Source: Shigella phage JK16
Strand: one strand, 5' to 3'
DNA: 51,854 bases
Sequence record: MK962751
A program made the translations under genes and the position numbers. This document shows positions 1 through 18,152 of the stretch, piece after piece; the stretch's first letter is position 1; the number at the start of each line of letters is the position of its first letter. The notes under the pieces are model-generated. The model was not told the DNA's origin, did no database searches, and saw only the letters and a program-made list of their open reading frames with translations.

Positions 1-930
1 TTATAGCAGTGATTCGGGCTTGTAGAGTTTTCTTTCTACTCCCTGTTTAAAATTATCGTTAACAGGCATCATTATGTCAAGTCCTCTTTCCTCTGCCGCG
101 ATTATCACATCACGATCATCTTTCCGGCAGACTACGCGCATTCTTCTTTCTCCTTTATATCTATGCGCAACCATTTCAAGATTTGAAGGAGTAAAACAGG
201 CCCACACCTCTTGACCAGTTGATAAATGAACATGCTGAGAATCAACCCAATCAAGGCACAAATAGATCGTCTTATCTGTACTACCTGTTTTAACAACAGA
301 TCCGCGCGTGTAGTCGCGAGCTAAAAACCAATCCTTTCCATCCTCATCAATGAAAAGCACGTTACACATTTCATCATCCAGCCCGTCATCATGCACCAGG
401 TGACAAGGTAGCGCGTGAATGTATCGACCATCCTTGACGCCGCAATCATAATGACAATCTTCCGGCGGATATATCCCCTCATAAACGCTTAAAGGTGTGC
501 GATCGAATTTTAATGTTTTTGCCATCACTTTTTCGCAACATTCATGACTTGCCTGTTTCCCGAACGAGTAACCAGAAGAACGCGAAGCGCGTTTGTTTGC
601 TCTGATCCTGTAATCTTGTGGCACTTTTCCGAGGAAGCGGCCCAAAATGTTGATGGCCTCGCTGTAAGGTTCGCCAGTTAATTTCATTAACCAACCGATC
701 CCCGTGTCGTTGCCGCACACGTTGCAGATCGCGCCGCCGTCGCCCTCTTCATTTAGCTTATCAGTCCATCTAAAACGATCCTTACCGCCGCAGTGTGGGC
801 AAGGTTGATGCTTTTTGTTGAAAACATCGCTATGCAGTCCGCAAATGCTTTGTAGTGCTTCACGCCATAACCCCTTCATATATGGCAAAACATCTTCTTT
901 CTGATAGGTCATAAAGTTTTCAGTATTCAT
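1..930 (-). CDS. DNA primase (zinc-ribbon plus Toprim-like region)
   Basis: CPHCGG...CNVCG zinc-binding motif followed by acidic Toprim-like segment (VVCRKDDRDVIIAAEERGLD); start chosen at MNTENF with GAGG RBS; longer ORF to 1008 would overlap upstream gene. Confidence 0.65.
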   Translation of the reverse strand: MNTENFMTYQKEDVLPYMKGLWREALQSICGLHSDVFNKKHQPCPHCGGKDRFRWTDKLNEEGDGGAICNVCGNDTGIGWLMKLTGEPYSEAINILGRFLGKVPQDYRIRANKRASRSSGYSFGKQASHECCEKVMAKTLKFDRTPLSVYEGIYPPEDCHYDCGVKDGRYIHALPCHLVHDDGLDDEMCNVLFIDEDGKDWFLARDYTRGSVVKTGSTDKTIYLCLDWVDSQHVHLSTGQEVWACFTPSNLEMVAHRYKGERRMRVVCRKDDRDVIIAAEERGLDIMMPVNDNFKQGVERKLYKPESLL

Positions 931-940
931 GGCAAACCTC

Positions 941-978
941 AATAAAAAAGCCCAGCAAATATTATCATTTCGCTGGGC
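941..978 (-). terminator. rho-independent terminator or attenuator between HTH gene and primase
   Basis: Minus-strand stem GCCCAGC/GCTGGGC with 15 nt loop followed by T-run. Confidence 0.5.
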
Positions 979-985
979 CTTATCA

Positions 986-1462
986 TTAGCTATTCGTGCT
1001 GTTATCACCTTTGTAGAATCGTCCGCCTGGTTCGTAGTCTGAATTTTTGACTACGCGCAACATATCGTATTTGTCGCAACGGGTAGTAAGAGGCTTACCG
1101 TTAGAATCAAACCGCAGATCTGGACGACAAAATGATGCGCGGTATCCTTTGCATCCATTATATTTGTAGTCGTTATGCACCTTTTGTGCTCCAGCGGCTG
1201 AAATCATACCACGCTTTCGCCACTGGTTAACGACTTGCTGAGATACGCGCAGACGTCGAGCCATAGCAGGAACGCCGCCGTAATACTCGATCAGAATGTC
1301 AAGGCGAGATTTCAGGCTTGCTTTTACCTCATCTCGCAGGATAAGAAATCCGGTTCGGTGTTTTCGTGGTTTTTTGTCTTTACCTCGTCGCGTTCCGTTG
1401 TTACCGTTAATAGTGCGCTTGTCGATCTCACCCGTAGATACTGCAATTCGTGCATCTTTCAT
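986..1462 (-). CDS. putative DNA-binding protein with Cro/YdaS-like helix-turn-helix
   Basis: Segment GGVPAMARRLRVSQQVVNQWRKRG resembles Cro/YdaS HTH; GAGGTGA RBS before start. Confidence 0.45.
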   Translation of the reverse strand: MKDARIAVSTGEIDKRTINGNNGTRRGKDKKPRKHRTGFLILRDEVKASLKSRLDILIEYYGGVPAMARRLRVSQQVVNQWRKRGMISAAGAQKVHNDYKYNGCKGYRASFCRPDLRFDSNGKPLTTRCDKYDMLRVVKNSDYEPGGRFYKGDNSTNS

Positions 1463-1474
1463 CTAGTCACCTCA

Positions 1475-1517
1475 TAGCATTTTTTGTTAAAACAGTTTAT
1501 TGTAATGAGTCTATTAT
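1475..1517 (+). promoter_or_regulatory. motif-class promoter upstream of helicase (TAGCATTTTTTGTTAAAAC, then 18 nt, then TATTAT)
   Basis: Conserved motif copy plus -10-like hexamer at fixed spacing, 33 nt before helicase start. Confidence 0.45.
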
Positions 1518-1549
1518 ATACTCCAAATGGCATTTTTTAAAGGTTTAAG

Positions 1550-3547
1550 ATGATTCCAAATATCGAAAAACAAATATCAGCATTAGGCGAGGCAGTAATA
1601 AAAAGCATCCAAGAGCGATTCACGGTTGGCAATATAGTGCCTTATCCTTATCAGTGCGTTGCGTATGCAGAGATCGCAAAGCGCATGAAAAACTATGAGC
1701 ATCCTTTCTTTGTTAAGGCTTCTGTATCGGCTGGCAAAACATTGATGTTTGCGATGGTTGCGGCGCAATGCCGCAAAATGGGATTGAAAATGATGGTCCT
1801 TGCTCGCCAGGCTGAAATTGTTGATCAGGATTCGGAAGAGATCAGCAATCTTGGCGTGCCAAACTCAATCTATTGCGCCGGACTGAAAACAAAAAGCGCA
1901 TACTTTCCGATCGTAGTCGGTTCTGAGGGCACTGTAGTAAACGGATTGTTTAAGTCGTTAGGTGATTATGTTCCGCACGTTATCGGTATTGATGAATGTC
2001 ACCAGGTGGATTGGGAGGATCTCGCGGACGCGATAGAAAATAATGAATCTTACCAGCAGATGACCACTAAGAAGGATTTGCCAGTACTGATTGGAGAAGA
2101 ACAGCAATTTGATTCCAATGGCGATCCAATGTTCGGAACAGGGCGCACACAGTACACCGTAATAATCATGGAAATGATGCGCAGGTGTCGCGAGGCATAC
2201 GGGCACGAATTGCGAATATTCGGCATGACTGGATCTGAGTTTCGCGGCGTGGTTCCAATACTGGTTGAAGATAAGAACAAAAAGGGATTCTGGCGTGAGC
2301 AAGTAACTAACATAGACACAAACTACTTAATCAAATTCGGTTCGGTAGTGCCAACAAATTTCGGCGACGTCGGCGACCTGGGGTATGACCTTTCAGAGTT
2401 CGAGGCCAGTAGCGAGGACGGCGTTTCAGACTTTGACGCTAAAACATTGCGCAAGATGGAAGAAAAGATCCATCAAGACGCAACAATGACACAGAAAATC
2501 ATGGCTAAAGTCCATGAGATATGCAAAGACAGGAACGGAGTTTTAGTTACATGCGCAGGGGAAAGGCACTGCAAGGAGGCCGCCGCCGCACTGCCGCCAG
2601 GCGTTGAATACAGGATCATAACTGGCAAGACTGGAGATAATCAGCGTAAAGAGTGGCTGAGGGAGGCATACGAGGGAAAAGTAAAATACATCTTCCAGGT
2701 ACAGGCGCTTACCACTGGCGTTAACGTTCCGTTTTGGGATACTTCGGTAATACTGAGAAAGATAGGATCTCTAACATTGCTTATCCAGCTTTTGGGGCGC
2801 GGCATGCGACTGCTTAAGCAATGGCACATTGAACAGGGATTCAAGAAAAAAGATCATCTTGTATTGGATTTTGCAGGTACTATGGATGAGTTAGGTGATT
2901 TGTATTTCGATCCAATCCTTGAGCAAGCGCAATTCCAAAAGAGATTTACAAACGGGAAAGAGCCTAAGACTTGTCCGATATGTGGAACGCTAAACAGCTT
3001 TTACGCTCGCCGATGTATGCACGTAGACGATAACGGGAAGCGATGTGAGCATTTTTGGACTTACAGAATTTGCGAGGACCAGGTAGATCCGAGAACGAAA
3101 AAGATAATCAAGCGCGGTTGTGGAACAAAAAACGACGTAGTGGCGAGAGTATGCCGTTGTTGCGATATTTCTCTTGTCGATCCTAACGAGAAGTTAAGCG
3201 GTAAGCACTACACCAAAAACGATTGGTGCAACGTTAAATCTTTCCGCGTTGATATGACGAAAAACCAGAAAGGAATTATTTTTTGCTATGAGCTTGAGGC
3301 CAACGGCGATACGTTCAAGGCATACGAAAGATTTTTCCCTGAGTCAGAAAGCAACATTTGCCGGACGATATGGAGAAAAATAGCATTGCAGCACATACCG
3401 GATCGCAAGATTGCTGGTATGGTGGCGAGCTATAGAAATGCTCGTAAAATAATGTCATACGCTCATCACATCATGCCGCCTGTACGCGTAACGCATCGCA
3501 AAAACGGCAAAGGTGAGGATAACATTGCAAAACGGGAGTTTGTTTAA
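1550..3547 (+). CDS. ATP-dependent DNA helicase (superfamily 2) with C-terminal Cys-rich zinc-ribbon region
   Basis: Walker A SAGKT, DExH-like IDECHQ, C-terminal CPICG...C...C clusters. Confidence 0.7.
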   Translation: MIPNIEKQISALGEAVIKSIQERFTVGNIVPYPYQCVAYAEIAKRMKNYEHPFFVKASVSAGKTLMFAMVAAQCRKMGLKMMVLARQAEIVDQDSEEISNLGVPNSIYCAGLKTKSAYFPIVVGSEGTVVNGLFKSLGDYVPHVIGIDECHQVDWEDLADAIENNESYQQMTTKKDLPVLIGEEQQFDSNGDPMFGTGRTQYTVIIMEMMRRCREAYGHELRIFGMTGSEFRGVVPILVEDKNKKGFWREQVTNIDTNYLIKFGSVVPTNFGDVGDLGYDLSEFEASSEDGVSDFDAKTLRKMEEKIHQDATMTQKIMAKVHEICKDRNGVLVTCAGERHCKEAAAALPPGVEYRIITGKTGDNQRKEWLREAYEGKVKYIFQVQALTTGVNVPFWDTSVILRKIGSLTLLIQLLGRGMRLLKQWHIEQGFKKKDHLVLDFAGTMDELGDLYFDPILEQAQFQKRFTNGKEPKTCPICGTLNSFYARRCMHVDDNGKRCEHFWTYRICEDQVDPRTKKIIKRGCGTKNDVVARVCRCCDISLVDPNEKLSGKHYTKNDWCNVKSFRVDMTKNQKGIIFCYELEANGDTFKAYERFFPESESNICRTIWRKIALQHIPDRKIAGMVASYRNARKIMSYAHHIMPPVRVTHRKNGKGEDNIAKREFV

Positions 3548-3966
3548 TGGCTATAACTGATAAAGGAGATTATCTTGAGTTTTACGAAAGAGATCCAACC
3601 GACACGAGAAAGGAAGTTAATCACCAGATAGATAGCTTTCAGTGGTTGACTTATGCTCATCCTTATTTGCTAGCTTGGCATACGGTAAACGAGAATGAGA
3701 AGTCGAAAGTAACGGCGATGATTGATCAGCAGTCCGGCTTGGTTAAGGGGGTAAGCGATTTCATCATCCTGATTGGTTCAAACGGAAAATACCCCTTTGC
3801 AGCGATTGAGATCAAACGAGTGAATAAATCAGGCAAGGGGAAAGCATCACCAGTCAGCGATGAACAAAAGGCTTTTTTGCGTCGCGTTCGCAGCTTAGGA
3901 GGATTCGCTGCGGTCGCCTACGGATTTAATCAGTTTAAGTTAGCTATTGAATACATGCTTAAATAG
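3547..3966 (+). CDS. VRR-NUC domain nuclease
   Basis: GVSDFIIL...AAIEIKR...Q pattern typical of VRR-NUC (PD-(D/E)XK) fold; start overlaps helicase stop. Confidence 0.6.
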   Translation: MAITDKGDYLEFYERDPTDTRKEVNHQIDSFQWLTYAHPYLLAWHTVNENEKSKVTAMIDQQSGLVKGVSDFIILIGSNGKYPFAAIEIKRVNKSGKGKASPVSDEQKAFLRRVRSLGGFAAVAYGFNQFKLAIEYMLK

Positions 3967-4006
3967 CACTTTTTGTTAAAACTGGCGCGATGGATTGCGC
4001 CATAAT
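3964..4006 (+). promoter_or_regulatory. motif-class promoter (motif, hairpin GGCGC..GCGCC, CATAAT)
   Basis: Motif provides TAG stop of upstream gene; -10-like hexamer 18 nt downstream. Confidence 0.45.
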
Positions 4007-4046
4007 TCAATAACACGAGATGGCTTTTAATAGCGGAGAAATGAAA

Positions 4047-4772
4047 ATGGCTAAAGATATTTTAGATAAAGACACCCATGACGCATTTGTTAGCTTTGAG
4101 CAGTTGGAGAGAGAAACGTTTATAGGAAATGCTCTTGCAACTGGAGGCCATTACCAGGCAGTAAAGCCAAATCAATATTATAAGGTAAGCGGCAACCGAT
4201 ACGCTGGAAGCACTACGCCGGACGTTGTGCGCGATATGTGGAGCACACCTCAAGAGATCGTGGAGTGGATGGAATCAGAATTTGGCGAATACGATCTCGA
4301 CGCGGCAGCAAGCCAGGAAAACGCAGTTTGCGAGAAGTTCTATAGCAAGGAAACAAACTGCTTAAAGCGTTGGTGGGGTAGCAACAAGCACGTATGGCTT
4401 AACCCGCCGTACAGCAACCCAACTCCATTTATCAAGAAAGCAATTGAGCAAATGGAGCACAACAACCAAATTGATGTTTTGTTGCCATCCGACAACTCTA
4501 CAGCATGGTTTTATGAGGCGCAGAAAAACGCGGCTGAAATCATCTGGATCACTGGCGAGGTTTACGAAGAGGGGGGAGTGGAATATTCCCGCACCGGAAG
4601 AATCGCCTTTGTGTCTGGATTGACTGGCGAGCCTGTACAGGGCAACAATAAGGGAAGCGTGATTTTTGTCATGCGCAAACTTAAAGAAGGCGAGGAGCAG
4701 AAAACGCGATACGTTAAGATCAGCGATATTTGCCCCTCTGTAACCGAACGCCGCGCGCGCAAACGGAGCTAA
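4047..4772 (+). CDS. dam: DNA N6-adenine methyltransferase (phage Dam family)
   Basis: DLDAAAS ... WLNPPYS catalytic motif (NPPY); start chosen 8 nt after GGAG. Confidence 0.8.
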   Translation: MAKDILDKDTHDAFVSFEQLERETFIGNALATGGHYQAVKPNQYYKVSGNRYAGSTTPDVVRDMWSTPQEIVEWMESEFGEYDLDAAASQENAVCEKFYSKETNCLKRWWGSNKHVWLNPPYSNPTPFIKKAIEQMEHNNQIDVLLPSDNSTAWFYEAQKNAAEIIWITGEVYEEGGVEYSRTGRIAFVSGLTGEPVQGNNKGSVIFVMRKLKEGEEQKTRYVKISDICPSVTERRARKRS

Positions 4773-4776
4773 CACG

Positions 4777-5034
4777 ATGAAAAAAGAGAGAAGCGTTTAT
4801 TTAAATGAAACTGGCGAGTGGTTGTTATTTCGCGCTATGGTGTGCGATGCACTTGATAAAAACCCTAACGTGAAAAAGATGATTGATTGCGATCCGTGGG
4901 AATTTTCAAGCGCATTAGATATGAGCTTTGATGAGACAAGAAAACTCCCTCTTGAAAAATGGCACGAACAAATCAGAAATGATATGCAAGAGTTTGTAGA
5001 TTCGTGGAATTTTCAGAACGGAATGATCCACTAA
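4777..5034 (+). CDS. hypothetical protein
   Basis: ORF directly after dam, ends in conserved motif (TAA TAG). Confidence 0.45.
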   Translation: MKKERSVYLNETGEWLLFRAMVCDALDKNPNVKKMIDCDPWEFSSALDMSFDETRKLPLEKWHEQIRNDMQEFVDSWNFQNGMIH

Positions 5035-5077
5035 TAGCACTTTTTGTTAAAACGCCCGGCATTTTGTCGGGCATAAT
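5035..5077 (+). promoter_or_regulatory. motif-class promoter (motif, hairpin GCCCG..CGGGC, CATAAT)
   Basis: Same architecture as other copies. Confidence 0.45.
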
Positions 5078-5103
5078 TATTTCATCGAAACGAACGTGAG
5101 GAA

Positions 5104-5289
5104 ATGAAAATGGTAGTATATAGCAAGAAAGCATTTGACAAGGCGCAACAAGCCGCACGCGAGGCGGTAAAAGGTGGAACGAAAAACAATATGCAGCTTG
5201 ATTGGGGCGCTGCAATGATTCTACTTCGCGTTGCATATGGTCACTACCCATTAGAATTTGCGGAGGCATATTATAAGCATGAAGATTGA
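5104..5289 (+). CDS. hypothetical protein
   Basis: ORF with GAGGAA RBS. Confidence 0.4.
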   Translation: MKMVVYSKKAFDKAQQAAREAVKGGTKNNMQLDWGAAMILLRVAYGHYPLEFAEAYYKHED

Positions 5290-5521
5290 ACAAGGTAGAG
5301 AGGCGGTATGGAATCACGCTAAAGAATGCGGAATAGCCGACGATATAAAGAAGATCGCGCAATACTTTGATATTGCAGATGTGAGCATAATTAGCGGCGA
5401 TAAGATGACTTTCCTCAAGGAAAGGCCGCGAAAAATGGTAAGAGTTCCAGCAGTTCCAACAAAAATTGATTTCAAAGAGGCAATGGCTAAAATCCGAGAG
5501 CCTCGCAAATATTATAAATGA
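5279..5521 (+). CDS. hypothetical protein
   Basis: ORF overlapping upstream stop; start MKIEQG. Confidence 0.4.
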   Translation: MKIEQGREAVWNHAKECGIADDIKKIAQYFDIADVSIISGDKMTFLKERPRKMVRVPAVPTKIDFKEAMAKIREPRKYYK

Positions 5522-5615
5522 GGATAGTTATCATGTGGCGCTTGTTTGTTCTACCGTTACCCGTTATCATCGCTGTTACAGTTATGTACCATATAGTGAT
5601 GAGATAGGTGGCAGA

Positions 5616-6731
5616 ATGAAAAATGTAAAAATTACAGATGAGCAATTCAAGATCGAACGGGCGGCGGGTAAGACATATAAACAGATCGCTCAAGAGTACG
5701 GAATGAATGTGAGAAGCGTCGAGCGTCGCGCGGCGCGACTTGCAAAGCAAGGCCAGGTATCCACCATTGGAGCGCCTTGTTTTGGCGTTCATGGTGAGTC
5801 AGTAATGACTGACAAAGAAGGCAACATAATCCTAAAGTGGACTAAAACCAGCAAGGATAAAGAGCAATTAGAAGCATTAATGCGCGCAGCAATGGAGGCA
5901 TTTAGCGAGGAAGTGCCGCGATTAGATCCGGTTCCATTACAGGAGCGTGACTATAACGAAACGCTTTCCTTGTATCCGATCTTTGACATGCACTTAGGAG
6001 CTATGGCCCATAAGCACGAATGCGGCGAAAATTGGGATACTGCCACGGCAGAGCGCGTTATGAATAACTTTATCGACTATGCTTTAATGTGCGCACCGGA
6101 TAGCGAAAAGGCTGTCATCCTGATTGGTGGCGATATGCTGCATAGCGACGGCCTGGAGGCGGTTACACCTGCAAGCGGTCACGTACTGGATCAAGATAGT
6201 CGATATGCAAAATTGGTTTACGTTGCCATCCGTGCAATGCGACGCGCAATCAATAAAATGTTGTTAAAGCATAAACATGTTGAAGTCCAGATCGTAGAGG
6301 GCAATCATGACCAATCAGGAATGATTTGGCTACGCGCAGCAATGGCGGCAGCATATGAAAACGAGCCGCGCGTTTACGTTGATGTTTCCCCTCGCGTTGT
6401 GCACCACACGCAATACGGAAAAACTTTCCTTGCGTACCATCACGGGCACACAGTGCGTAAACCGGAGGCTTTGCTAATGATGTGCGCGTCAGATTGGCGG
6501 GAGGACTTCGGAAACTCAAAAACGATGTATGCGCACGTAGGGCACTGGCATCACCAGACCGTGACAGAAACGTCGCTTGGCATCGTTGAGGTGCATAGCA
6601 CCCTGGCGGCAAAAGACGCATACGCCGCGCGAGGTGGCTGGAGATCTCGACGCCGTGCGGCGGTTATCATTTACGACAAAGAGCATGGAGAGGTGGGGCG
6701 ATTTGTTCACTATCCAGAAATGATGAATTGA
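5616..6731 (+). CDS. calcineurin-like metallophosphoesterase with N-terminal HTH-like segment
   Basis: Motifs DMHLG, GGDMLHSDG, EGNHD, HHGH, GHWHH; AGGTGG RBS; N-terminal ...NVRSVERRAARL... Confidence 0.6.
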   Translation: MKNVKITDEQFKIERAAGKTYKQIAQEYGMNVRSVERRAARLAKQGQVSTIGAPCFGVHGESVMTDKEGNIILKWTKTSKDKEQLEALMRAAMEAFSEEVPRLDPVPLQERDYNETLSLYPIFDMHLGAMAHKHECGENWDTATAERVMNNFIDYALMCAPDSEKAVILIGGDMLHSDGLEAVTPASGHVLDQDSRYAKLVYVAIRAMRRAINKMLLKHKHVEVQIVEGNHDQSGMIWLRAAMAAAYENEPRVYVDVSPRVVHHTQYGKTFLAYHHGHTVRKPEALLMMCASDWREDFGNSKTMYAHVGHWHHQTVTETSLGIVEVHSTLAAKDAYAARGGWRSRRRAAVIIYDKEHGEVGRFVHYPEMMN

Positions 6732-6775
6732 TGAATTTTTATTTAAATCAATGACAAATTAAATCAAAAACTTGC

Positions 6776-6808
6776 AAGGGGGCGGCGTTTGTCGCCTCTT
6801 TTTTTTGT
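6776..6808 (+). terminator. rho-independent terminator after phosphoesterase gene
   Basis: GC-rich stem with G-U pairs followed by T8. Confidence 0.5.
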
Positions 6809-6876
6809 TTAATTTTTTACCATGTACGTTTATCATGCGGTCAATATATTGACTTTAATTAATATGGAGAATAAAA

Positions 6877-7092
6877 ATGAAAGATTTTATTAACGCAGCT
6901 ACCGCCGGATCTGGCGGTTCATCTATCGCAAGCGCCGCTACAGGGCAGTTAACCATTGCTATTGCCAGCTTTGTTTTAATGGCTGCATTCGGTGCATGGG
7001 GCGCTTACCTTCGCTGGCGTGATAGTAAAAAATTCCACGAGGCGATCGAAAAAGGTGATATTCAAAAAGCTATTGAAATCAGGGGCAAGTAA
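6877..7092 (+). CDS. holin
   Basis: 71 aa, single hydrophobic helix with charged C-terminus, immediately upstream of endolysin. Confidence 0.55.
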
Positions 7093-7583
7093 TGAGCATA
7101 AAGAACAAGGTAGCGGCTGCGGCCTTTGGCGTTGCGGTTGCCTTGACTTCTCCACTTCTTGAAGAGATCGAAGGGGTAAGATACAAGCCATACAAAGATA
7201 TTGCTGGAGTATGGACGGTTTGCGCAGGAATCACCGGACCAGATGTTATCCTGGGGAAAACGTACACTAAAAAAGAGTGTGATGCTTTGTTGGCTAAGCA
7301 TATCCAGGTTGCTAAAAAGGAAGTTGACAAGCAAGTTAAGGTTGACATTCCTGATAGTATGCGTGCAGCAATGTACTCATTCACTTACAATGCAGGTGTG
7401 GGAGCTTTCAGAAATTCAACAATGCTGAAACTCATAAACCAGGGGAAATTAAACGAGGCTTGCGATCAGCTTTATCGTTGGACTTATTACCATAACCAAA
7501 AAACAGGAAAGCGCGAGAAGTCTAAAGGCTTACTTAACAGGCGCAAGGTCGAATACAAATATTGCACAATGGATCTGAAATGA
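7092..7583 (+). CDS. SAR endolysin, GH24 lysozyme
   Basis: N-terminal Ala/Gly-rich weakly hydrophobic signal-anchor-release segment then E..D..T catalytic triad pattern ([26 protein letters not shown]). Confidence 0.8.
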
Positions 7584-7975
7584 TGAAGAATTTTTTACTT
7601 ACACCAATCGCAATGGCGGTGATCTTGTCTGGATGTTCAAGCGTTACGCCACTGACCGGATTAATCGGCAGTAAGCCGGAAATCACAGCACAGGCTGGAG
7701 CGGAGAACGTGAAGCAGACAGTTGGCATTACAGCAAAGCAGGACGCCAGCACAAAACAGGAAACCACAATAAAGGAATCTGCGGTTGACAAGGTGGACAC
7801 GTCCAGCAAGAAGGATTTCACAACATCAACCATTCAGGCCAATACCATCAAGGCAGACAAAATTCAGGTCGTGCAGGGTAATAACGGCAGATGGTACGAT
7901 CCGGTAATCATATGCGTGGTTGTGTTAATTGTGCTGATTTGTCTTTACTGGAGAGAAAAGAAAAAGGAGGCTTAA
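7580..7975 (+). CDS. unimolecular spanin (T1 gp11-like)
   Basis: N-terminal lipoprotein signal with lipobox LSGC and C-terminal transmembrane helix ([16 protein letters not shown]); start overlaps endolysin stop. Confidence 0.7.
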
Positions 7976-7992
7976 TGCCTCCTTTATTTTTA
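7963..7992 (+). terminator. rho-independent terminator after lysis cassette
   Basis: Stem AAGGAGGC/GCCTCCTT followed by TATTTTTAT; stem overlaps spanin stop. Confidence 0.6.
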
Positions 7993-8214
7993 TGCGTCGG
8001 GCCACATATGAGTTTCGTTTGTTGGCTTGTTCGATTCGTCGTACTGCCTTACTTCAATGCTGCAAGTGTCGCCGTACATTTCTGCAATCTTGCGCTCATT
8101 TTCAAACGCCGATTGCTCACTCCAGCCTGAATCCTTATCGTAAACTGTCGGGATTTCAGAAGAAGATCCATTTGCATGATTGTATACGCGAACTACTAAA
8201 AACTTGCTGGACAT
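7990..8214 (-). CDS. hypothetical protein
   Basis: Minus ORF with AAGGA RBS. Confidence 0.4.
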   Translation of the reverse strand: MSSKFLVVRVYNHANGSSSEIPTVYDKDSGWSEQSAFENERKIAEMYGDTCSIEVRQYDESNKPTNETHMWPDA

Positions 8215-8251
8215 GATTTTTCCTTTTTGGTTGGTTCGTTTCGATGAAACA

Positions 8252-8294
8252 AATATACCCGACACAATGTCGGGAGTTTTAACAAAAAATGCTA
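8252..8294 (-). promoter_or_regulatory. motif-class promoter, minus strand (TAGCATTTTTTGTTAAAAC, hairpin, TATATT)
   Basis: Motif variant plus -10-like hexamer 18 nt downstream on minus strand. Confidence 0.4.
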
Positions 8295-8486
8295 TTCCAT
8301 ACGCTTTACTGTAACCAATAACACACCATCATCATTGCATAAAACGTGTTCATTGGTGCTAAAAGCGCGCATATCTGAATAAAGCAGCGTAAGTAACGCA
8401 TGAATAAGATCCTCATGTGATATTGAATTTACGGCGCAGTGCTTCAAGATCTTGTCTATTAGCTTTTGCCTGGAACAATTCATCAT
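8292..8486 (-). CDS. hypothetical protein
   Basis: ORF whose stop lies in motif copy; overlaps neighbour, start uncertain. Confidence 0.3.
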   Translation of the reverse strand: MMNCSRQKLIDKILKHCAVNSISHEDLIHALLTLLYSDMRAFSTNEHVLCNDDGVLLVTVKRME

Positions 8487-8808
8487 CGCCCATCTCCCCT
8501 ATTCTAGCCATATCCCTGATCCAGTCGTTGCGCATACCATCCAGGCTATACAATTCGAATCCGAAAGGCCGCTTTGACGATCCTTTGGACCAGTATTTTC
8601 CGCAGACTCCATCTATATAACCAGCCGTCATCATTCTTGCGCAAAATTCCTTAGATGCAAGGCTGGCGAACATTCGCGGCGTAAGTCCGGCGGCCCGTGC
8701 GAGCCGCTCACATTCTCTATGCTGATAGATAAATTTGGCTATGTGCTGCCTGTTAAACCAATCGTATGACTCACACCATTTATACAGATCAAGCAAAAAC
8801 ATAATCAT
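8413..8808 (-). CDS. hypothetical protein
   Basis: 131 aa ORF, start overlaps stop of upstream gene. Confidence 0.45.
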   Translation of the reverse strand: MIMFLLDLYKWCESYDWFNRQHIAKFIYQHRECERLARAAGLTPRMFASLASKEFCARMMTAGYIDGVCGKYWSKGSSKRPFGFELYSLDGMRNDWIRDMARIGEMGDDELFQAKANRQDLEALRRKFNIT

Positions 8809-10385
8809 CCCAGCAGTATTGGATTGACAAAAATAACACCATTAATCACACAAACATAATTTCTTTCTTCCAGCATTGGCAGTAAGTGCCCTTCTATCCT
8901 TTTCATTACGCCAGCCTGACCAACGAAAGGTTTTACCTTTCTCGCTGATTCGTACAGGGCGCGGATATTCAGAATACCTTTATTAGCCTTGCCGTGCCTC
9001 GTGATCAATTCAATCAATTTACCCATTTCAGCATCATCACCAGCATAACCAGAAGCATTGGCGGCGCTAATGTATGTTTTGCTCAATTCCTGAAACATGA
9101 TCAACGCCTCTTGCATTGTTTCCACGTCGATCTCTTTCGACTTCTGCGGGTATCCGGCAGGATTAAACCAGTTACGGATAACATGCAGGACGGAAGCAAG
9201 CCTGATCACCTGTTTATCCATTTTACCCAGCGCACCGCGTAACATTGTATGAGAATACTTTCCTCCGTCTGCAAGATGCGGTTCCATATCCTGGCGAGCA
9301 ATGTTGAGCACTCGCATAGCTGAACGGCTTATTTTCAGCGATATATTTGATTCGCTCATGATGTTATGCACCAATTGATAATATTGGGCTTTCAATTCAG
9401 AATCCACCGCCTCATAGGTAGAATCACCATTTTCATCAATGAATGAGCGACGGCCTAAGAATGATTCCTCTCGGACCAACAAAAAACGCTCACTAACACC
9501 GATGCCTCGCGATCCAGCGTCCATGATTCCGCTTATCGTTTCATCCTGGGCTATGACGCTCATACATCCAAGCGCGCGAAAACTCATATTATTGTCAGCA
9601 TTAGCACGGGCAATTGATACGTGACCATTATCCCACGCCTTAAGCACTAACTCACTGTTAGTCTTCCTTTCGCTATTTGCATAGGTCAAGCCTAACAGAC
9701 TGTTAATACTTGTTGCTTCATCAGATATTACGGCAAAGTTACCTTGCTTGTTGTTGATTTTCGCCAAGCCTTCTGGAGTTGTATCTGAAACAGGAAAAGT
9801 TATATCACACATTTTTTCCAGCTTTTCCTCCAGATCCTCTTTTTCCTGGTATAGAGATTCCATATCAGCGCCGGATCTTTCGCTTTTCATCTCCTTTGCA
9901 AGACCTGCCAGCTTTGCCTGTATTTTCTTTCTTTCCTTGCGGCGTTGCTCGTTGATCTTCTCAACTTCCGCAATCATCGGAGCAATAGCCATGCTGTTGA
10001 TCGCAGATTTACCAGTTGACGGCGGCTGGCTTGTAACGACGTAAAGCGCAGTCGGCTGATCGGTTCCGTGATAGTCAACCGTAAAGCGTCCAAGCATAGC
10101 GGCAGAAATGCAGCCGATAAAGTGCATGTAAGCCGATGATTCAGGGAATTGAACGGATCGCGCAATGCTGCGTGATAACTTGCCGACAACATCAATATCA
10201 TTACCAAGAGAAATAACGGGGTAGCGATCGTGACCGCTATTCACATCCTTTACGTCGCCCCAAAAGCTGGACGACTGGCGATAGCCGTTAGCCTGAATTG
10301 ATACGCGAACTGGCGAAAGGTTCTGGCTTTCAGCCATAGCGATTATTTGTTGTGGAGTTAATTTGTTCGTTTCTAATGAAAACAT
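8805..10385 (-). CDS. DUF3987-like P-loop protein
   Basis: PPSTGKS P-loop-like segment and overall similarity to YfjI/DUF3987-type proteins; AAGGAG RBS. Confidence 0.5.
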   Translation of the reverse strand: MFSLETNKLTPQQIIAMAESQNLSPVRVSIQANGYRQSSSFWGDVKDVNSGHDRYPVISLGNDIDVVGKLSRSIARSVQFPESSAYMHFIGCISAAMLGRFTVDYHGTDQPTALYVVTSQPPSTGKSAINSMAIAPMIAEVEKINEQRRKERKKIQAKLAGLAKEMKSERSGADMESLYQEKEDLEEKLEKMCDITFPVSDTTPEGLAKINNKQGNFAVISDEATSINSLLGLTYANSERKTNSELVLKAWDNGHVSIARANADNNMSFRALGCMSVIAQDETISGIMDAGSRGIGVSERFLLVREESFLGRRSFIDENGDSTYEAVDSELKAQYYQLVHNIMSESNISLKISRSAMRVLNIARQDMEPHLADGGKYSHTMLRGALGKMDKQVIRLASVLHVIRNWFNPAGYPQKSKEIDVETMQEALIMFQELSKTYISAANASGYAGDDAEMGKLIELITRHGKANKGILNIRALYESARKVKPFVGQAGVMKRIEGHLLPMLEERNYVCVINGVIFVNPILLG

Positions 10386-10437
10386 TCGTTAGCTTCTCCT
10401 TTGTGGGCCGTAAATTTTAACGGCCCAATACTACCCC

Positions 10438-10456
10438 GTTTTGTCAAAAAGTGCTA
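10438..10456 (-). promoter_or_regulatory. motif copy (TTGACA variant) followed by hairpin GGGCCGT..ACGGCCC, upstream of DUF3987 gene
   Basis: Motif variant TAGCACTTTTTGACAAAAC; no clear -10 at standard spacing. Confidence 0.35.
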
Positions 10457-13365: not shown

Positions 13366-13366
13366 T

Positions 13367-13630: not shown

Positions 13631-13856
13631 GGTTATTACTCCTTATCGTAAAGATTTAAAGACGTATAGTTTATTGCGGTAACTATATATCCGCATTGTT
13701 ATTTCTCGCAACGCAATATATTCCTTCCTGTTTTCCGGAATCCTGGCGAGCAATAACAGGCAGTATTTATAAGCGCGGTCAAGATTCCTTTCCGTGCCCC
13801 TGCAATATCCCTTGTTGCGCCTGGAGCGGCACAGCCATAACAATTTCTTGAACATT

Positions 13857-14090
13857 TCAGATACGCCCATACAGATCGCAAACTTCATTGATAAAACAGC
13901 GTTGAGACTCTTTATCCTGCTTCTCAAACATCGCACGGCACTCATAGCGGTGATTATGCACGATGACAACAACCATATTTTCAGGTGCTGACGGGTGACG
14001 CGCTGACGCGTCGCAGATTGAAACATCCATACCCATCTCATGTGCTTTCTTGATCACATCCAACATTTTTTCTTCTCCTGCAATAAGCAA
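13857..14090 (-). CDS. hypothetical protein
   Basis: 77 aa ORF. Confidence 0.35.
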   Translation of the reverse strand: MLIAGEEKMLDVIKKAHEMGMDVSICDASARHPSAPENMVVVIVHNHRYECRAMFEKQDKESQRCFINEVCDLYGRI

Positions 14091-14320
14091 ACATCATTGA
14101 TAAAATCAGCACGGCCCTTAATGTTGCTGATGTGGAACGTCTTTTCAGCGTACAGGCCATCACCTTCAATCACGATCATTACGCGAGTCGGTTTATTCAC
14201 GGGCGCACACGAAAAGAGTGGTCGCGCCGGAAGAAATTTAGTAGCCACATCCAGGTTAGCCCTGGCGGCCCTGCAAAACGCCTCCGCCAGATCCAAATCA
14301 TTTTCGGTAATCACCGCCAT
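14054..14320 (-). CDS. hypothetical protein
   Basis: 88 aa ORF. Confidence 0.4.
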   Translation of the reverse strand: MAVITENDLDLAEAFCRAARANLDVATKFLPARPLFSCAPVNKPTRVMIVIEGDGLYAEKTFHISNIKGRADFINDVCLLQEKKKCWM

Positions 14321-14592
14321 TACTTCTTGATCTCCTTACTGATAAATTTCAGCACCTGGCGCAAGAAAACTTCGTTGTTGATAGTCGCTGGCAATTCTTC
14401 TTTCACTTCTTGCGGCAGATAGATATTGCCGTGCCAGGTCAAGCAATCGTAGTTGATACGATAAGAGCAAAGCCACTCGCAATCGTTATCTGCTTCCCAA
14501 ATGCAGAGTTGCAGAACATCGCCAAAATCTTCAACAGTCAGATCCAGACCGTGACGCTTAGCGAAATTGAAAGTGGTTTTGCTGATGTTCAT
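14320..14592 (-). CDS. hypothetical protein (first gene of minus-strand cluster)
   Basis: 90 aa ORF downstream of motif promoter. Confidence 0.45.
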   Translation of the reverse strand: MNISKTTFNFAKRHGLDLTVEDFGDVLQLCIWEADNDCEWLCSYRINYDCLTWHGNIYLPQEVKEELPATINNEVFLRQVLKFISKEIKK

Positions 14593-14627
14593 TTACTATC
14601 TCCTGAGCGGTTCGTTTCGATGTGTGT

Positions 14628-14670
14628 AATGTACCCGATCAGGCGGCCTGAGTTTTAACAAAAAGTGCTA
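14628..14670 (-). promoter_or_regulatory. motif-class promoter driving the minus-strand cluster (motif, 18 nt, TACATT)
   Basis: No gene upstream on minus strand, so this copy cannot be a terminator. Confidence 0.45.
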
Positions 14671-14694
14671 TTTGACGGTTAGCACCAGGATTGT

Positions 14695-14795
14695 GATCGA
14701 AATAATCAAAAGTAATCATTCGTAATCAAATCACGTCAAAATGATGATTGCATTTGCAAATTTGATGAGAAAAGTAATCACGTTTAATCATTGGT
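14695..14795. repeat. iteron-like cluster of (G)TAATCA repeats
   Basis: Five direct TAATCA copies plus inverted TGATGATT and TTTGCAAA palindrome in the divergent control region. Confidence 0.4.
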
Positions 14796-15210
14796 TGCAG
14801 GGGAGATAGTGAAACCTTCCCCTCTTGCCTCACTTTCCCGCCTGGCTGTCAGTGGTTGTTATGTTCCGTTCCCGCCTGTTCTTTTGTTGACCTTCCGCAA
14901 AATACGATAACAAAAAATAACAAACAATACCTATATAATACATTGAAAAATAAGGATTATTTATTTATATGTATCTATATATTATCTTTTGTTATCTTGG
15001 TTATTGTGGTATTTGGTGGGGGTATATAGTTTTTGTGTATCTATATGTGTGTATGGGTATGTAGGGGCATATATATCTATATGGCACTTTCCGCGAGAAA
15101 ACTTCGATAACAGCCAATGATAACATTGATTTATAAGGAAAAATAACGCCAATATTGTTATTGTGCCACCATATAAAATTGATAAAACACGCGGGAACAA
15201 GAAAAAACAG

Positions 15211-15239
15211 TTGACACATTAAATAGCATTATTGATAAT
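15211..15239 (+). promoter_or_regulatory. sigma70-type promoter, copy 1 (TTGACA, 17 nt, GATAAT)
   Basis: Consensus -35, 17 nt spacer, near-consensus -10, 30 nt upstream of ATG. Confidence 0.6.
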
Positions 15240-15268
15240 GCCGACACCTAACAACCAGGAGGTAGAAA

Positions 15269-15475
15269 ATGAGCGAGCAATCATTAACTGACACGCTGCG
15301 CCGTGCAGCTATTATGCTGGCTAATGGCGAGGAAGAGGCGATCAAGATTCCTGACGCGTATTTGCAGGTCCACATGTTCGGCAAGAAGTCGGCAAGCAAT
15401 CCGGCGGCCTACATTCGCCAGATCATGAGTCGAGTTCCAGAAGTCGCCGAGCGTTCCCGCCTGTTCTTTTGTTGA
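15269..15475 (+). pseudogene. truncated duplicate of the 5-prime part of the first early gene
   Basis: First 61 codons identical to the 15854 gene, then runs out of the repeat unit into a short unrelated tail. Confidence 0.6.
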
Positions 15476-15795
15476 CCTTCCGCAAAATACGATAACAAAA
15501 AATAACAAACAATACCTATATAATACATTGAAAAATAAGGATTATTTATTTATATGTATCTATATATTATCTTTTGTTATCTTGGTTATTGTGGTATTTG
15601 GTGGGGGTATATAGTTTTTGTGTATCTATATGTGTGTATGGGTATGTAGGGGCATATATATCTATATGGCACTTTCCGCGAGAAAACTTCGATAACAGCC
15701 AATGATAACATTGATTTATAAGGAAAAATAACGCCAATATTGTTATTGTGCCACCATATAAAATTGATAAAACACGCGGGAACAAGAAAAAACAG

Positions 15796-15824
15796 TTGAC
15801 ACATTAAATAGCATTATTGATAAT
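15796..15824 (+). promoter_or_regulatory. sigma70-type promoter, copy 2 (TTGACA, 17 nt, GATAAT)
   Basis: Identical to copy 1, upstream of intact gene. Confidence 0.6.
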
Positions 15825-15853
15825 GCCGACACCTAACAACCAGGAGGTAGAAA

Positions 15854-16318
15854 ATGAGCGAGCAATCATTAACTGACACGCTGCGCCGTGCAGCTATTAT
15901 GCTGGCTAATGGCGAGGAAGAGGCGATCAAGATTCCTGACGCGTATTTGCAGGTCCACATGTTCGGCAAGAAGTCGGCAAGCAATCCGGCGGCCTACATT
16001 CGCCAGATCATGAGTCGAGTTCCAGAAGTCGCCGAGCGGGGGCGCGTATCCGTTACCCGTGGAGTTTACGGGCCGGAAGATGAAAACTTCGGTAGCACTT
16101 TCTACGAGGTGCGCATTGTTGAAGGACGTCGCAAGGTTTACAACAAAGAGGCACTGGAAAGGGCAGTACGCCAGGCTAAGCGCAAGGTTGCAGAGGCGAT
16201 CATTGATATGTCACCAAACCTAGCAAACTATGCGCCGGAAGAGTATGAAACATTATCAAAGGCCGTCGCTGACTTTCACGCGATGATCAAAAAAACTTTC
16301 CTGGAGGATGAGCAATGA
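15854..16318 (+). CDS. hypothetical early protein
   Basis: 154 aa; AGGAGG RBS; first gene after strong promoter. Confidence 0.55.
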   Translation: MSEQSLTDTLRRAAIMLANGEEEAIKIPDAYLQVHMFGKKSASNPAAYIRQIMSRVPEVAERGRVSVTRGVYGPEDENFGSTFYEVRIVEGRRKVYNKEALERAVRQAKRKVAEAIIDMSPNLANYAPEEYETLSKAVADFHAMIKKTFLEDEQ

Positions 16319-16587
16319 AAAAGGCGTTAATCGGTGTTTTGGTGGCAATGGCATTCCTGACCGGATGTAAAGAAGATGGCGCGCATGTTGGCAATGTGCA
16401 GATGGCTAACCCTGGCGATGACTACAACGTAAGGGAGCTATTCACCGCTGACGGATGCACTGTTTACCGATTCTATGACGATCGCACTGTTTACTTCACC
16501 AACTGCAAGGGAACTACTAGCTGGGAAGTGTCGAAAAGCAATGGCAAAGGCACGAAGACAGAACATATGACCGTCGAGACAAAATAG
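16315..16587 (+). CDS. lipoprotein, possible superinfection-exclusion (Cor/Llp-like)
   Basis: Signal peptide with lipobox LTGC; 90 aa with three Cys. Confidence 0.5.
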   Translation: MKKALIGVLVAMAFLTGCKEDGAHVGNVQMANPGDDYNVRELFTADGCTVYRFYDDRTVYFTNCKGTTSWEVSKSNGKGTKTEHMTVETK

Positions 16588-16627
16588 CACTTTTTGTTAA
16601 AACTCAAAAACGATAACCAGGCATAAT
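16585..16627 (+). promoter_or_regulatory. motif-class promoter (motif, 18 nt, CATAAT)
   Basis: Motif supplies TAG stop of lipoprotein gene. Confidence 0.45.
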
Positions 16628-16832
16628 ACACACATAGACGGGCGGCAAGGATTGCTGCGGGAGAGGAGCGACGCAGGGGCTTGATCGAAGTGTCAGGATT
16701 CCCAACCGTGAGGCCAGAACTATCACACTCGCCACCAGGCAGAACGCTAGATAGGTCACTGAACTGAGGCTACCGACGAAGTGAAGCCCGTCACCAAAGA
16801 TTAAACGGTTATTTATGTGAAAGGGGTTAATG

Positions 16833-17012
16833 ATGGATAAGATCATCAAAATGAGCGAAGTCAAGCCGGGAATGATGGTTAAATTTGCTGGCAAATATCG
16901 CCTAGTGCTGGATAACTGCCGCAAAGAGAACATTCTTACAATTCGTGTAAATGGCAAGGCGCAGCTATTCGCCCCTAACGCAGATATTGACGTTGAAGTT
17001 AGAATTAAGTAA
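16833..17012 (+). CDS. hypothetical protein
   Basis: 59 aa; AAAGGGG RBS. Confidence 0.4.
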   Translation: MDKIIKMSEVKPGMMVKFAGKYRLVLDNCRKENILTIRVNGKAQLFAPNADIDVEVRIK

Positions 17013-17027
17013 TTAGGAGAAATCACC

Positions 17028-18152
17028 ATGTTAAAACTTGCTGACATTAAATTCCCGATCACCTTCGAATCTCGCGGCATTGGTCATTACATTTTTACTG
17101 ATGAAAAAACATGCCATAAGGTTAATATGAATAGCGACAAACTAAGCCCATCAACAATGGAGATTGAACACTTTATTGATGCGCACAATACGCAGTACAA
17201 CGCACTTAAAGACTATGGCTATGCAATGCCAGGCTACACATGTTTGCACTACAAGCCATATAAAGGCCAGGTGTTGCCAGTAAAAGAGAACAAGCAATTC
17301 CTGCTGGATAGCGAGGAGATTGTATACCCGATCACCTTTGAAACGGCAGGAAATAGCGTTGTGACTTTCACATCTCGCGACAACGGCACATATGGAAACG
17401 GCTTGAGAACAAGTTATAATGTTGATTACTTCGTCGCCTGTCATAACATGGCTAATCCTAACAACGATAAGAACAAGGTGTACTACGTGCGCGATATTGA
17501 AAGGCAGTGGCCTAAGAAAGACTCCCAGGCAGAGATTCCGATGGTTCATATGAAAACCTGCGACTACAAAAAGCTGTGGTGCTTAAGTCTGGACAATATC
17601 AAGTATCCGATCACGTTCCGCACGACTGGTAAGTCAACGATTCGCTACACATCGCGCGAAAATGGCGTTTATAGCGATGGTACGAAATCAGGGTTGAAAG
17701 TTGATTTCTTTGTCAACGGTCACAATAGATACAATCCGCACAACGAAGAGGATAAAGTGTACTACGTGGAAGACATTACAAAACACTTATTTGGAGAAAC
17801 TCCATTCGGCGGCGGTAAGACGTCAATTCAAAAAATCATTGGCGATGAGATCCACAAAGCGGCTGCCGAAATGAAAGCTCCTGGAGGCTGGCGTATTGAC
17901 AAGAGCGCATTTGCAAATCAAGAAATCGTAACGCAGGGCGCAATTGAAGATATGCCAGTTGCAGCCACTCTAAAAGGAGTCCGGCTTGATGACGGCACCT
18001 GGTATGAAGTAACGGCTACACCAAAGACGATCGAGATTCATGATGACGTTGTTATCCTTCTGCTTCACTACGGCGGCTATAAAAACCGGACGATTGCAGG
18101 TGAGATCAGCATTAAGCGCGGAACGATGATTAAGTGGAAGGTGAAGATTTGA
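17028..18152 (+). CDS. protein with three tandem repeats of a ~60-residue unknown domain
   Basis: Repeats start KFPITFESRG / VYPITFETAG / KYPITFRTTG and end HN..NP.N.(D/E)..KVYYV.DI; AGGAG RBS. Confidence 0.6.
   Translation: MLKLADIKFPITFESRGIGHYIFTDEKTCHKVNMNSDKLSPSTMEIEHFIDAHNTQYNALKDYGYAMPGYTCLHYKPYKGQVLPVKENKQFLLDSEEIVYPITFETAGNSVVTFTSRDNGTYGNGLRTSYNVDYFVACHNMANPNNDKNKVYYVRDIERQWPKKDSQAEIPMVHMKTCDYKKLWCLSLDNIKYPITFRTTGKSTIRYTSRENGVYSDGTKSGLKVDFFVNGHNRYNPHNEEDKVYYVEDITKHLFGETPFGGGKTSIQKIIGDEIHKAAAEMKAPGGWRIDKSAFANQEIVTQGAIEDMPVAATLKGVRLDDGTWYEVTATPKTIEIHDDVVILLLHYGGYKNRTIAGEISIKRGTMIKWKVKI

What the first reader, a model, noticed from the sequence alone, without database searches (positions are those of the whole stretch)
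14867..16036. Exact 585 bp tandem duplication spanning the early promoter region and the first 61 codons of the first early gene
Units 14867-15451 and 15452-16036 are identical base for base. Each carries the AT-rich upstream region, the TTGACA-17-GATAAT promoter, the RBS and the 5-prime end of the MSEQSL gene. The first copy yields a truncated 68-codon ORF; the second is the intact 154-codon gene. Possible explanations are a real promoter duplication (dosage or regulatory variation), an assembly artefact, or a direct terminal repeat captured in tandem, in which case the physical genome ends would lie at the repeat boundaries (about 14867, 15452, 16036), next to the early promoter as in phages with short terminal repeats.
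Basis: seen in the sequence. Interest (0 to 1): 0.7.

Follow-up and report, generated by a model that had tools for sequence, protein, structure and literature searches.

The report
Untrimmed contig overlap, not a duplication
The exact 585-bp tandem repeat is really in this phage genome record (Shigella phage JK16), but it is almost certainly left over from joining the overlapping ends of a linear assembly of a circularly permuted genome, so the true genome is 51,269 bp with one promoter and one gene copy.

Summary
Window 14867-15451 and 15452-16036 are identical base for base, and each copy carries the AT-rich region, TTGACA-17-GATAAT, the RBS and 61 codons of the MSEQSL gene.

The window is the complete GenBank genome of Shigella phage JK16 (MK962751, 51,854 bp). 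JK16 is a T1-like phage (Drexlerviridae, Warwickvirus) assembled with MIRA from 2x250 MiSeq reads.

Four results point to a finishing artefact:
- All 14 close relatives have one copy, and the de-duplicated sequence aligns to them without a gap.
- Independent k=31 assemblies of public runs SRR6379773 and SRR6379774 are 100% identical to the whole window but carry one copy. Each is 51,299 bp, which equals 51,269 + 30. That is the length of a single-copy circle; a real duplication would break the graph into 50,742 + 587 + 58 bp.
- The authors' own gene table lists orf29 as 15269..15451, 61 aa, with no stop codon. It ends on the last base of copy 1, as a gene call cut by a contig end would.
- The record was re-opened exactly at the primase stop codon.

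Together these indicate that contig ends overlapping by 585 bp were abutted without trimming.

The repeat lies about 110-120 bp to the right of where the T1 and TLS records place pac. The contig end may therefore reflect the packaging end, but T1-like phages package by headful and have no short fixed terminal repeat. Biological interest is low.

The parts
14867..15451 (+). Copy 1 of the 585-bp unit. It was the 3' end of the original linear contig and is the redundant copy that should have been trimmed.
   Evidence: Identical to 15452-16036. Absent as a second copy in AV105, JLBYU10 and 12 other close relatives and in the Logan contigs.
15452..16036 (+). Copy 2 of the unit. It was the 5' end of the original linear contig and continues into the intact gene.
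15451..15452 (.). Join of the two contig ends (…GTCGCCGAG|CGTTCCCGCC…). It carries a 2-bp CG overlap with the sequence that follows copy 2.
   Evidence: The junction 40-mer is absent from IMG/VR, the JGI metagenome contigs and the GTDB genomes. The authors' orf29 ends at exactly 15451 without a stop codon.
15269..15475 (+). Spurious 68-codon ORF (GenBank gp29, QEG04984.1): 61 real N-terminal codons plus 7 codons read across the join.
   Evidence: ORF; 68-aa protein known only from JK16; paper's Table S2: 15269..15451, 61 aa.
15854..16318 (+). Intact first rightward gene (gp30, 154 aa, Pfam DUF7174).
15211..15239 (+). Promoter-like TTGACA-17-GATAAT, copy 1. The RBS AGGAGG lies at 15256-15261.
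15796..15824 (+). The same promoter-like site in copy 2. In the true genome there is only one.
14700..14795 (.). Cluster of 10-bp-phased TAATCA/TGATT motifs just left of the repeat. The record starts (assigned pac ends) of T1 and TLS align here, at about 14747 and 14758, so this is a candidate pac/TerS recognition region.
   Evidence: 7 motifs in 96 bp against 0.5 per 100 bp genome-wide; local alignments score 81 and 147 against shuffle means of about 33-35.
14652..14673 (-). Perfect copy of the 22-mer intergenic repeat AAATAGCACTTTTTGTTAAAAC, upstream of the first leftward gene.
   Evidence: The repeat type is described for TLS in PMC11447400.
14320..14592 (-). First leftward gene (gp28, 90 aa). 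Together with gp30 it bounds the 676-bp divergent intergenic region of the true genome.
1..930 (-). Primase gene. The record begins exactly on its stop codon, which shows the sequence was deliberately re-opened after assembly.
   Evidence: orf1 1..930. The window end joins the window start seamlessly in AV105 and in Logan contig L017.

Best explanation
The repeat is a finishing artefact in the deposited genome of Shigella phage JK16 (MK962751). JK16 is a T1-like phage whose virion DNA is circularly permuted and terminally redundant, so its reads assemble into a circle. The overlap-layout assembler MIRA returned a linear contig whose two ends overlapped by 585 bp: the contig began at what is now 15452 and ended at what is now 15451. 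Genes were called on that linear contig, which cut the first rightward gene at the contig end after 61 codons. The sequence was then re-opened at the primase gene by abutting the two ends without removing the overlap, and this created an exact tandem repeat. The real genome unit is 51,269 bp, with one promoter region and one 154-codon gene; gp29 does not exist. Shown here: the single copy in independent assemblies and in relatives, the truncated gene call, and the re-opened start. Inferred: the exact order of the authors' editing steps and MIRA's behaviour.
For: 1. Identity of the window. Its proteins are QEG04985.1 and QEG04988.1 of Shigella phage JK16, on a longest contig of 51,854 bp. The paper's Table 3 gives MK962751 as 51,854 bp, assembled with MIRA v4.0.2 from 2x250 MiSeq reads and edited in Artemis, with no mention of termini or repeats.
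2. Independent assemblies. Logan contigs SRR6379774_552 and SRR6379773_1363, plus fragments from SRR6379770, tile the entire window at 100% identity with 0 mismatches and 0 gaps, and they carry one copy of the unit.
3. Contig length. Both full Logan contigs are 51,299 bp. My k=31 simulation gives exactly 51,299 for the single-copy circle, and 50,742 + 587 + 58 bp if the duplication were present.
4. Relatives. All 14 close relatives (97-98% identical) span about 1,515 bp where the window spans 2,101 bp. The de-duplicated window aligns to AV105 over 1,516 bp with no gap.
5. Gene table. Supplementary Table S2 of the JK16 paper lists orf29 as 15269..15451, + strand, 61 aa. That ends on the last base of copy 1 (codon GAG) with no stop codon, which is the signature of a gene call running off a sequence end. 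GenBank later carries it as 68 aa, running to the stop at 15475.
6. Re-opening. The record starts exactly on the primase stop codon, and the window end and start are contiguous in relatives and in the Logan contigs, so the sequence was re-opened after assembly.
7. Junction searches. The junction 40-mer is absent from three public contig collections.
Against: I could not inspect JK16's own reads. The provenance of SRR6379770, SRR6379773 and SRR6379774 is unknown (no paper cites them), so they may be another stock of the same phage. A de Bruijn assembly would also hide a duplication carried by a minority of genomes. The statement that MIRA leaves overlapping ends on circular molecules rests on my own knowledge, not on a test here. 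An overlap of 585 bp is longer than two 250-nt reads, so a plain 'ends meet' overlap is slightly longer than I would expect. The left boundary lies only about 110-120 bp from the presumed pac end. That would be a roughly 0.5% coincidence for a random contig end, so the contig end probably owes something to packaging-related coverage.
Confidence: 0.88

Rival explanations
1. Partial capture of the true terminal redundancy. The left boundary (14867) is the pac cleavage end of first-headful virion DNA, reads pile up there, and the surplus coverage of the redundant region let both contig ends extend across it. The repeat would still not be an internal duplication of the replicating genome, but its left edge would carry real information about the physical end.
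For: The T1 record is opened in the homologous divergent intergenic region, with repeat_region 1..2800 running rightward over the same early genes. The TLS record is opened there too. The TLS and SU57 papers place pac and the terminal repeat in this untranslated region. The T1 and TLS record starts align to window positions of about 14747 and 14758, about 110-120 bp from 14867, beside a phased TAATCA cluster. A random contig end would fall this close in only about 0.5% of cases (my arithmetic: 240 / 51,269).
Against: The T1 and TLS starts do not coincide with 14867. Those starts come from restriction mapping and, for TLS, from motif resemblance, so they are approximate. Headful right ends are imprecise, so 16036 cannot be a defined end. 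PhageTerm often finds no sharp termini in T1-like phages (KanT1; SU57). No read-level data are available.
Confidence: 0.3
2. Genuine internal tandem duplication in the sequenced JK16 stock. It would have arisen by illegitimate recombination, or by end-joining of a terminally redundant molecule, at a 2-bp CG microhomology, doubling the promoter region and producing a 68-aa N-terminal peptide.
For: The repeat is exact and has a 2-bp microhomology at the junction. Headful packaging tolerates a small increase in genome size. Tandem duplications are known in other phages (own knowledge: lambda, T4 rII).
Against: A 100% identical genome assembled from at least two public runs has one copy, with a contig length that excludes the junction. 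No relative has the duplication. The authors' orf29 stops on the last base of copy 1 with no stop codon, which a gene caller working on a true continuous duplication would not produce. The phage encodes an exonuclease and an ERF-family recombinase, which would delete a 585-bp perfect tandem repeat quickly. No selective benefit is evident.
Confidence: 0.06
3. JK16 has fixed short direct terminal repeats of 585 bp (T7/T5-style ends). The linear virion sequence, with both repeats, was rotated so that the repeats became adjacent.
For: In this reading the original contig had identical 585-bp ends, which is how a DTR genome looks after assembly (inferred). The repeat sits next to the first rightward promoter.
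Against: The family is documented as pac/headful with partial permutation (T1 and TLS). The window encodes a P22-gp3-type small terminase (PF16677 GP3_package) and a Terminase_6C large subunit, collinear with T1. No relative's record shows such repeats.
Confidence: 0.04

Closest known systems
Untrimmed end overlap of a linear contig from a circular or circularly permuted genome (a common assembly or finishing artefact)
   Same: The repeat is exact. It is private to one record and absent from independent assemblies of identical sequence. The junction coincides with a gene call truncated at a sequence end. An overlap-layout assembler was used. The record was re-opened at a gene boundary.
   Different: The repeat is usually seen at the two ends of a record. 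Here it became internal and tandem because the sequence was rotated before deposition. At 585 bp the overlap is longer than a k-mer overlap from a de Bruijn assembler.
Terminal redundancy of pac/headful T1-like phages (T1 repeat_region 1..2800; TLS about 1 kb)
   Same: It occupies the same genomic place: it starts in the divergent intergenic region upstream of the rightward small genes and extends rightward from the pac side.
   Different: True redundancy is 1-2.8 kb, has an imprecise far end, and exists only on virion molecules, not as a tandem repeat in the unit genome. The T1 and TLS starts map about 110-120 bp left of this repeat.
Short fixed direct terminal repeats (T7, T5, SP6-type phages)
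   Same: Similar repeat length (hundreds of bp) and an early promoter region next to an end.
   Different: Terminase type, family and documented packaging mode are all different, and no relative has such repeats.
Genuine tandem duplications in phage genomes (lambda, T4 rII; own knowledge)
   Same: Head-to-tail exact copies with a short microhomology at the junction.
   Different: Those are supported by physical or genetic evidence. Here the junction is missing from independent read sets.

Membership tests
Contig-end overlap artefact | The two copies are exactly identical | tested here: met
   585/585 identical.
Contig-end overlap artefact | The extra copy is absent when the same genome is assembled independently | tested here: met
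   Logan contigs from SRR6379773 and SRR6379774 are 100% identical over the whole window and carry one copy. Their length of 51,299 bp equals the single-copy circle plus k-1. Caveat: the origin of these runs is unknown.
Contig-end overlap artefact | The junction coincides with a former sequence end | tested here: met
   The authors' orf29 is 15269..15451, 61 aa, without a stop codon. The record is re-opened at the primase stop codon.
Contig-end overlap artefact | The assembler does not circularise or trim | not testable with these tools
   The paper states MIRA v4.0.2. That MIRA leaves overlapping ends on circular molecules is my own knowledge.
Contig-end overlap artefact | Read depth over the unit equals the flanks and no reads span the junction | not testable with these tools
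   Raw reads cannot be mapped here.
Real tandem duplication | Junction sequence present in independent data or in relatives | tested here: not met
   Absent from 14 close relatives, from the Logan assemblies, and from IMG/VR, the JGI metagenomes and the GTDB genomes.
Short fixed direct terminal repeat genome (T7/T5-type) | Family and terminase associated with fixed-end packaging | tested here: not met
   The phage is Drexlerviridae, Warwickvirus. Its TerS is PF16677 GP3_package and its TerL is Terminase_6C, collinear with T1. T1 and TLS are documented as pac/headful.
Short fixed direct terminal repeat genome (T7/T5-type) | Defined virion DNA ends at both repeat boundaries | not testable with these tools
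   This needs read-start analysis or restriction mapping of virion DNA.
T1-like pac/headful phage (Drexlerviridae) | Genome synteny and nucleotide identity with family members | tested here: met
   95-99% identity to AV105 over most of its length, the same gene order as T1 and TLS, and the NCBI lineage Warwickvirus JK16.
T1-like pac/headful phage (Drexlerviridae) | The pac-proximal end lies in the divergent intergenic region upstream of the rightward small genes | tested here: inconclusive
   The T1 and TLS record starts align to about 14747-14758 within a homologous intergenic region. The JK16 pac site itself has not been mapped.

The most novel reading that the evidence does not exclude
The duplication is physically real in the JK16 stock that was sequenced. 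In this reading a first-headful molecule, cut at pac (14867) and at a headful end (16036), was re-circularised by microhomology-mediated end-joining (the 2-bp CG) instead of homologous recombination. That would fix its terminal redundancy as an internal tandem repeat and mark the pac cut at base resolution. The single-copy public read sets would then represent the parental stock.
Probability: 0.04. Interest if true: 0.4.

Novelty: not a real feature. Interest (0 to 1): 0.08.

Why it matters
There is no new biology here: no promoter duplication and no short terminal repeat. The practical value is curation. MK962751 and its RefSeq copy are the exemplar genome of the ICTV species Warwickvirus JK16, and later genomes such as JLBYU10 are opened at the same point. 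The record overstates the genome by 585 bp (51,269 bp is correct) and contains a non-existent gene, gp29 (QEG04984.1 / YP_009900914.1). Scans for terminal repeats, promoter duplications or gene-dosage variants in phage databases will pick up such artefacts. This case also gives a quick test for them: compare the record with an independent k-mer assembly, and look for gene calls that stop at the junction.

Tried and rejected
- BLASTN of T1 and TLS against the window found no usable alignment across the intergenic region. A Smith-Waterman alignment with shuffle controls was needed.
- I looked for close relatives whose records start at the repeat boundary. None of the 14 records that share this intergenic region is opened there.
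- I searched for the junction 40-mer in IMG/VR, the JGI metagenome contigs and the GTDB genomes: 0 hits. The normal left-boundary 40-mer is also absent from IMG/VR, so this strain is not represented there and that negative is weak.
- I searched the literature for SRR6379770 and SRR6379774 to learn what those runs are: nothing found.
- MK962751 is not in the phage collection, so its GenBank feature table could not be read. I used the paper's supplementary Table S2 and an exact protein look-up instead.
- An exact look-up of the 68-aa ORF in the gene-position index gave nothing, although the protein is in the protein collection. This is uninformative.
- Tandem Repeats Finder cannot see a period of 585.
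- I rejected 'dosage or regulatory duplication' because it has no support in independent data.
- I rejected 'fixed 585-bp DTR' because of the family's documented headful packaging.
- I chose not to spend a large protein search on testing whether the SRR runs belong to the JK phage study.

Full report
OBSERVATION

The two units, 14867-15451 and 15452-16036, are identical at all 585 positions (family D1). Period-585 identity continues for two more bases, so the junction …GTCGCCGAG|CGTTCCCGCC… shares a 2-bp CG with the sequence that follows copy 2.

Each unit holds three elements:
- a GC-poor stretch (GC 0.29 over 14900-15210, against 0.446 genome-wide);
- a TTGACA-17-GATAAT site (15211-15239 and 15796-15824; 11 of 12 matches);
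- AGGAGG and an ATG.

The first ATG opens a 68-codon ORF that reads across the junction (15269-15475). The second opens the intact 154-codon ORF (15854-16318).

WHAT THE WINDOW IS

The region matches 123 phage records, nearly all T1-like coliphages. The closest are Warwickvirus members at 97-98% identity.

The window is a complete genome:
- its last base and first base are adjacent in phage AV105;
- they are also adjacent in an independent contig (L017);
- the window's own ends do not repeat.

It starts exactly on the stop codon of the minus-strand primase gene.

An exact protein look-up identifies it as Shigella phage JK16, with a longest contig of 51,854 bp. The describing paper (Kaczorowska et al. 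2019, PMC6832132) gives GenBank MK962751 at 51,854 bp. It reports MiSeq 2x250 reads assembled with MIRA v4.0.2, ORFs called with Prodigal, and editing in Artemis. It says nothing about termini, circularity or repeats. JK16 is the exemplar of the species Warwickvirus JK16.

RELATIVES HAVE ONE COPY

In all 14 records that share this intergenic region, the 2,101-bp query spans only about 1,515 bp. Removing one unit from the window gives a 1,516-bp gap-free alignment to AV105 (98.2%) and a 1,514-bp alignment with one gap to JLBYU10 (97.9%).

INDEPENDENT ASSEMBLIES OF THE SAME GENOME HAVE ONE COPY

Exact look-ups of four window proteins returned Logan (k=31) contigs from public runs:
- SRR6379774_552, 51,299 bp;
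- SRR6379773_1363, 51,299 bp;
- fragments from SRR6379770.

Further similar places were reported but not shown. Together these contigs cover every base of the window at 100% identity, with no mismatch or gap, except that left flank, unit and right flank are contiguous with a single unit.

I built the k=31 graph for both versions of the sequence:
- The single-copy circle has no branching and prints as exactly 51,299 bases (51,269 + 30).
- With the duplication, the graph breaks into 50,742, 587 and 58 bp.

The observed contig length is therefore what the single-copy genome gives and not what a clonal duplication gives. The junction 40-mer is also absent from IMG/VR, the JGI metagenome contigs and the GTDB genomes.

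THE JUNCTION WAS A SEQUENCE END

Supplementary Table S2 of the JK16 paper lists orf29 as 15269..15451, + strand, 61 aa. Position 15451 is the last base of copy 1. The codon there is GAG, and the reading frame actually continues to a TGA ending at 15475. A coding call that stops on that base without a stop codon is what a gene caller reports for a gene running off the end of its input.

GenBank now carries the product as 68 aa (QEG04984.1). That sequence exists nowhere else. The only other member of its cluster is a frameshifted normal gene without the junction.

With orf1 at 1..930, the simplest history has three steps:
1. MIRA produced a linear contig running from 15452 through the record's ends to 15451, with 585 bp repeated at both ends.
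2. Genes were called on that contig.
3. The sequence was re-opened at the primase gene by abutting the ends without trimming.

MIRA's tendency to leave overlapping ends on circular molecules is my own knowledge and was not tested here.

WHY HERE? THE PACKAGING END

The repeat sits in a 676-bp (true length) divergent intergenic region. It lies between the first leftward gene (14320-14592) and the first rightward gene.

- The T1 record is opened in the corresponding region and annotates repeat_region 1..2800 running rightward.
- The TLS record is opened there as well.
- The TLS paper describes pac-initiated headful packaging with about 1 kb of redundancy, and a pac assignment made by restriction mapping plus motif resemblance.
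- The SU57 paper places the end and the terminal repeat in this untranslated region.

Local alignments of the T1 and TLS end-to-start junctions to the JK16 intergenic region score 81 and 147, against shuffle means of 35 and 33. They put T1 position 1 at about 14747 and TLS position 1 at about 14758. Both fall inside a cluster of 10-bp-phased TAATCA/TGATT motifs (7 in 96 bp, against 0.5 per 100 bp genome-wide).

The repeat's left edge (14867) is thus about 110-120 bp to the right of the presumed pac end. That is close enough to suggest the contig end was influenced by packaging-related read pile-up or excess coverage of the redundant region. I give that about 0.3. It is not coincident, however, and the reference positions are approximate. 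In either case the tandem repeat is a product of how the sequence was represented, not a feature of the replicating genome.

RIVALS

A real duplication in the sequenced stock remains possible only under three conditions: the public runs come from a different stock, the orf29 end is a coincidence, and the phage's own exonuclease and ERF recombinase had not yet removed a perfect 585-bp repeat. I give this about 0.06.

A fixed 585-bp direct terminal repeat conflicts with the family's documented headful mode and with the P22-gp3-type small terminase. I give this about 0.04.

VERDICT

The correct JK16 genome is 51,269 bp, with one copy of the promoter region and of the DUF7174 gene, and gp29 is spurious. 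The value of this finding is in database curation, not in biology.

Noticed in passing
window 1472, 3961, 5032, 8276(-), 10438(-), 11430(-), 13347(-), 14652(-), 16582, 18376, 19826, 22461, 35029(-), 45807(-): The 22-mer AAATAGCACTTTTTGTTAAAAC occurs 14 times at 3 or fewer mismatches, with 0 expected. In the two early-gene arms either side of the repeat (minus-strand copies 8276-14652, plus-strand copies 16582-22461) the copies point the way the genes are transcribed. It corresponds to the 21-base intergenic direct repeats reported for TLS, whose function (promoter, enhancer or regulator site) is still unknown (PMC11447400).
   Followed up: partly
window 14700-14795: Seven AATCA/TGATT motifs lie in 96 bp, with TAATCA phased at 10 bp (14703/14713/14723 and 14775/14785). 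The T1 and TLS record starts align inside this cluster. It is a candidate pac / small-terminase binding array for Warwickvirus and has not been mapped experimentally.
   Followed up: partly
window 14957-15017 and 45949-46009: A 61-nt AT-rich stretch inside the repeated unit is 70% identical to a stretch in the genome's other divergent intergenic region, upstream of the recE-like exonuclease gene at 46254 (family D2). It may be a shared promoter-upstream or regulatory element.
   Followed up: no
window 17028-18152 (within 16608-18376): This 374-aa ORF has no Pfam hit and carries three internal modules of the form (K/V)(F/Y)PITF..G…SR.NG.Y. It lies in a 1.8-kb segment missing from the closest relative, AV105. 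The exact protein is known only from JK16 and a few Logan contigs.
   Followed up: no
Loci L007-L012 and L017 (runs SRR6379770, SRR6379773, SRR6379774, plus two not shown): Several consecutive public runs of unknown provenance contain a genome 100% identical to JK16, apart from the extra 585 bp. The high contig numbers (552, 1363, 5611) suggest complex samples. They could be the JK16 libraries, a cocktail experiment, or contamination by a T1-like phage.
   Followed up: partly
window 15269-15475; paper Table S2: The paper lists orf29 as 61 aa (15269..15451), while GenBank QEG04984.1 is 68 aa. The CDS was evidently extended to the next stop at submission. Table S2 also has a typo for orf16 ('10454..1675').
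   Followed up: yes
window 51132-51268: A 63-bp tandem repeat (2.2 copies, 78% matches) lies inside the side tail fibre gene (49793-51772, minus strand).
   Followed up: no
window 5033-5095 and 8234-8296: A 63-nt inverted repeat (89% complementary) brackets the phosphoesterase and lysis cassette. A third, weaker copy lies at 14610-14672. Each includes a copy of the 22-mer repeat (I1/I2).
   Followed up: no
window 10664-12159, 16608-18376, 30232-31251: These segments have no megablast match in AV105. The first contains an HNH endonuclease gene (orf17). This is typical mosaic variation among Warwickviruses.
   Followed up: no
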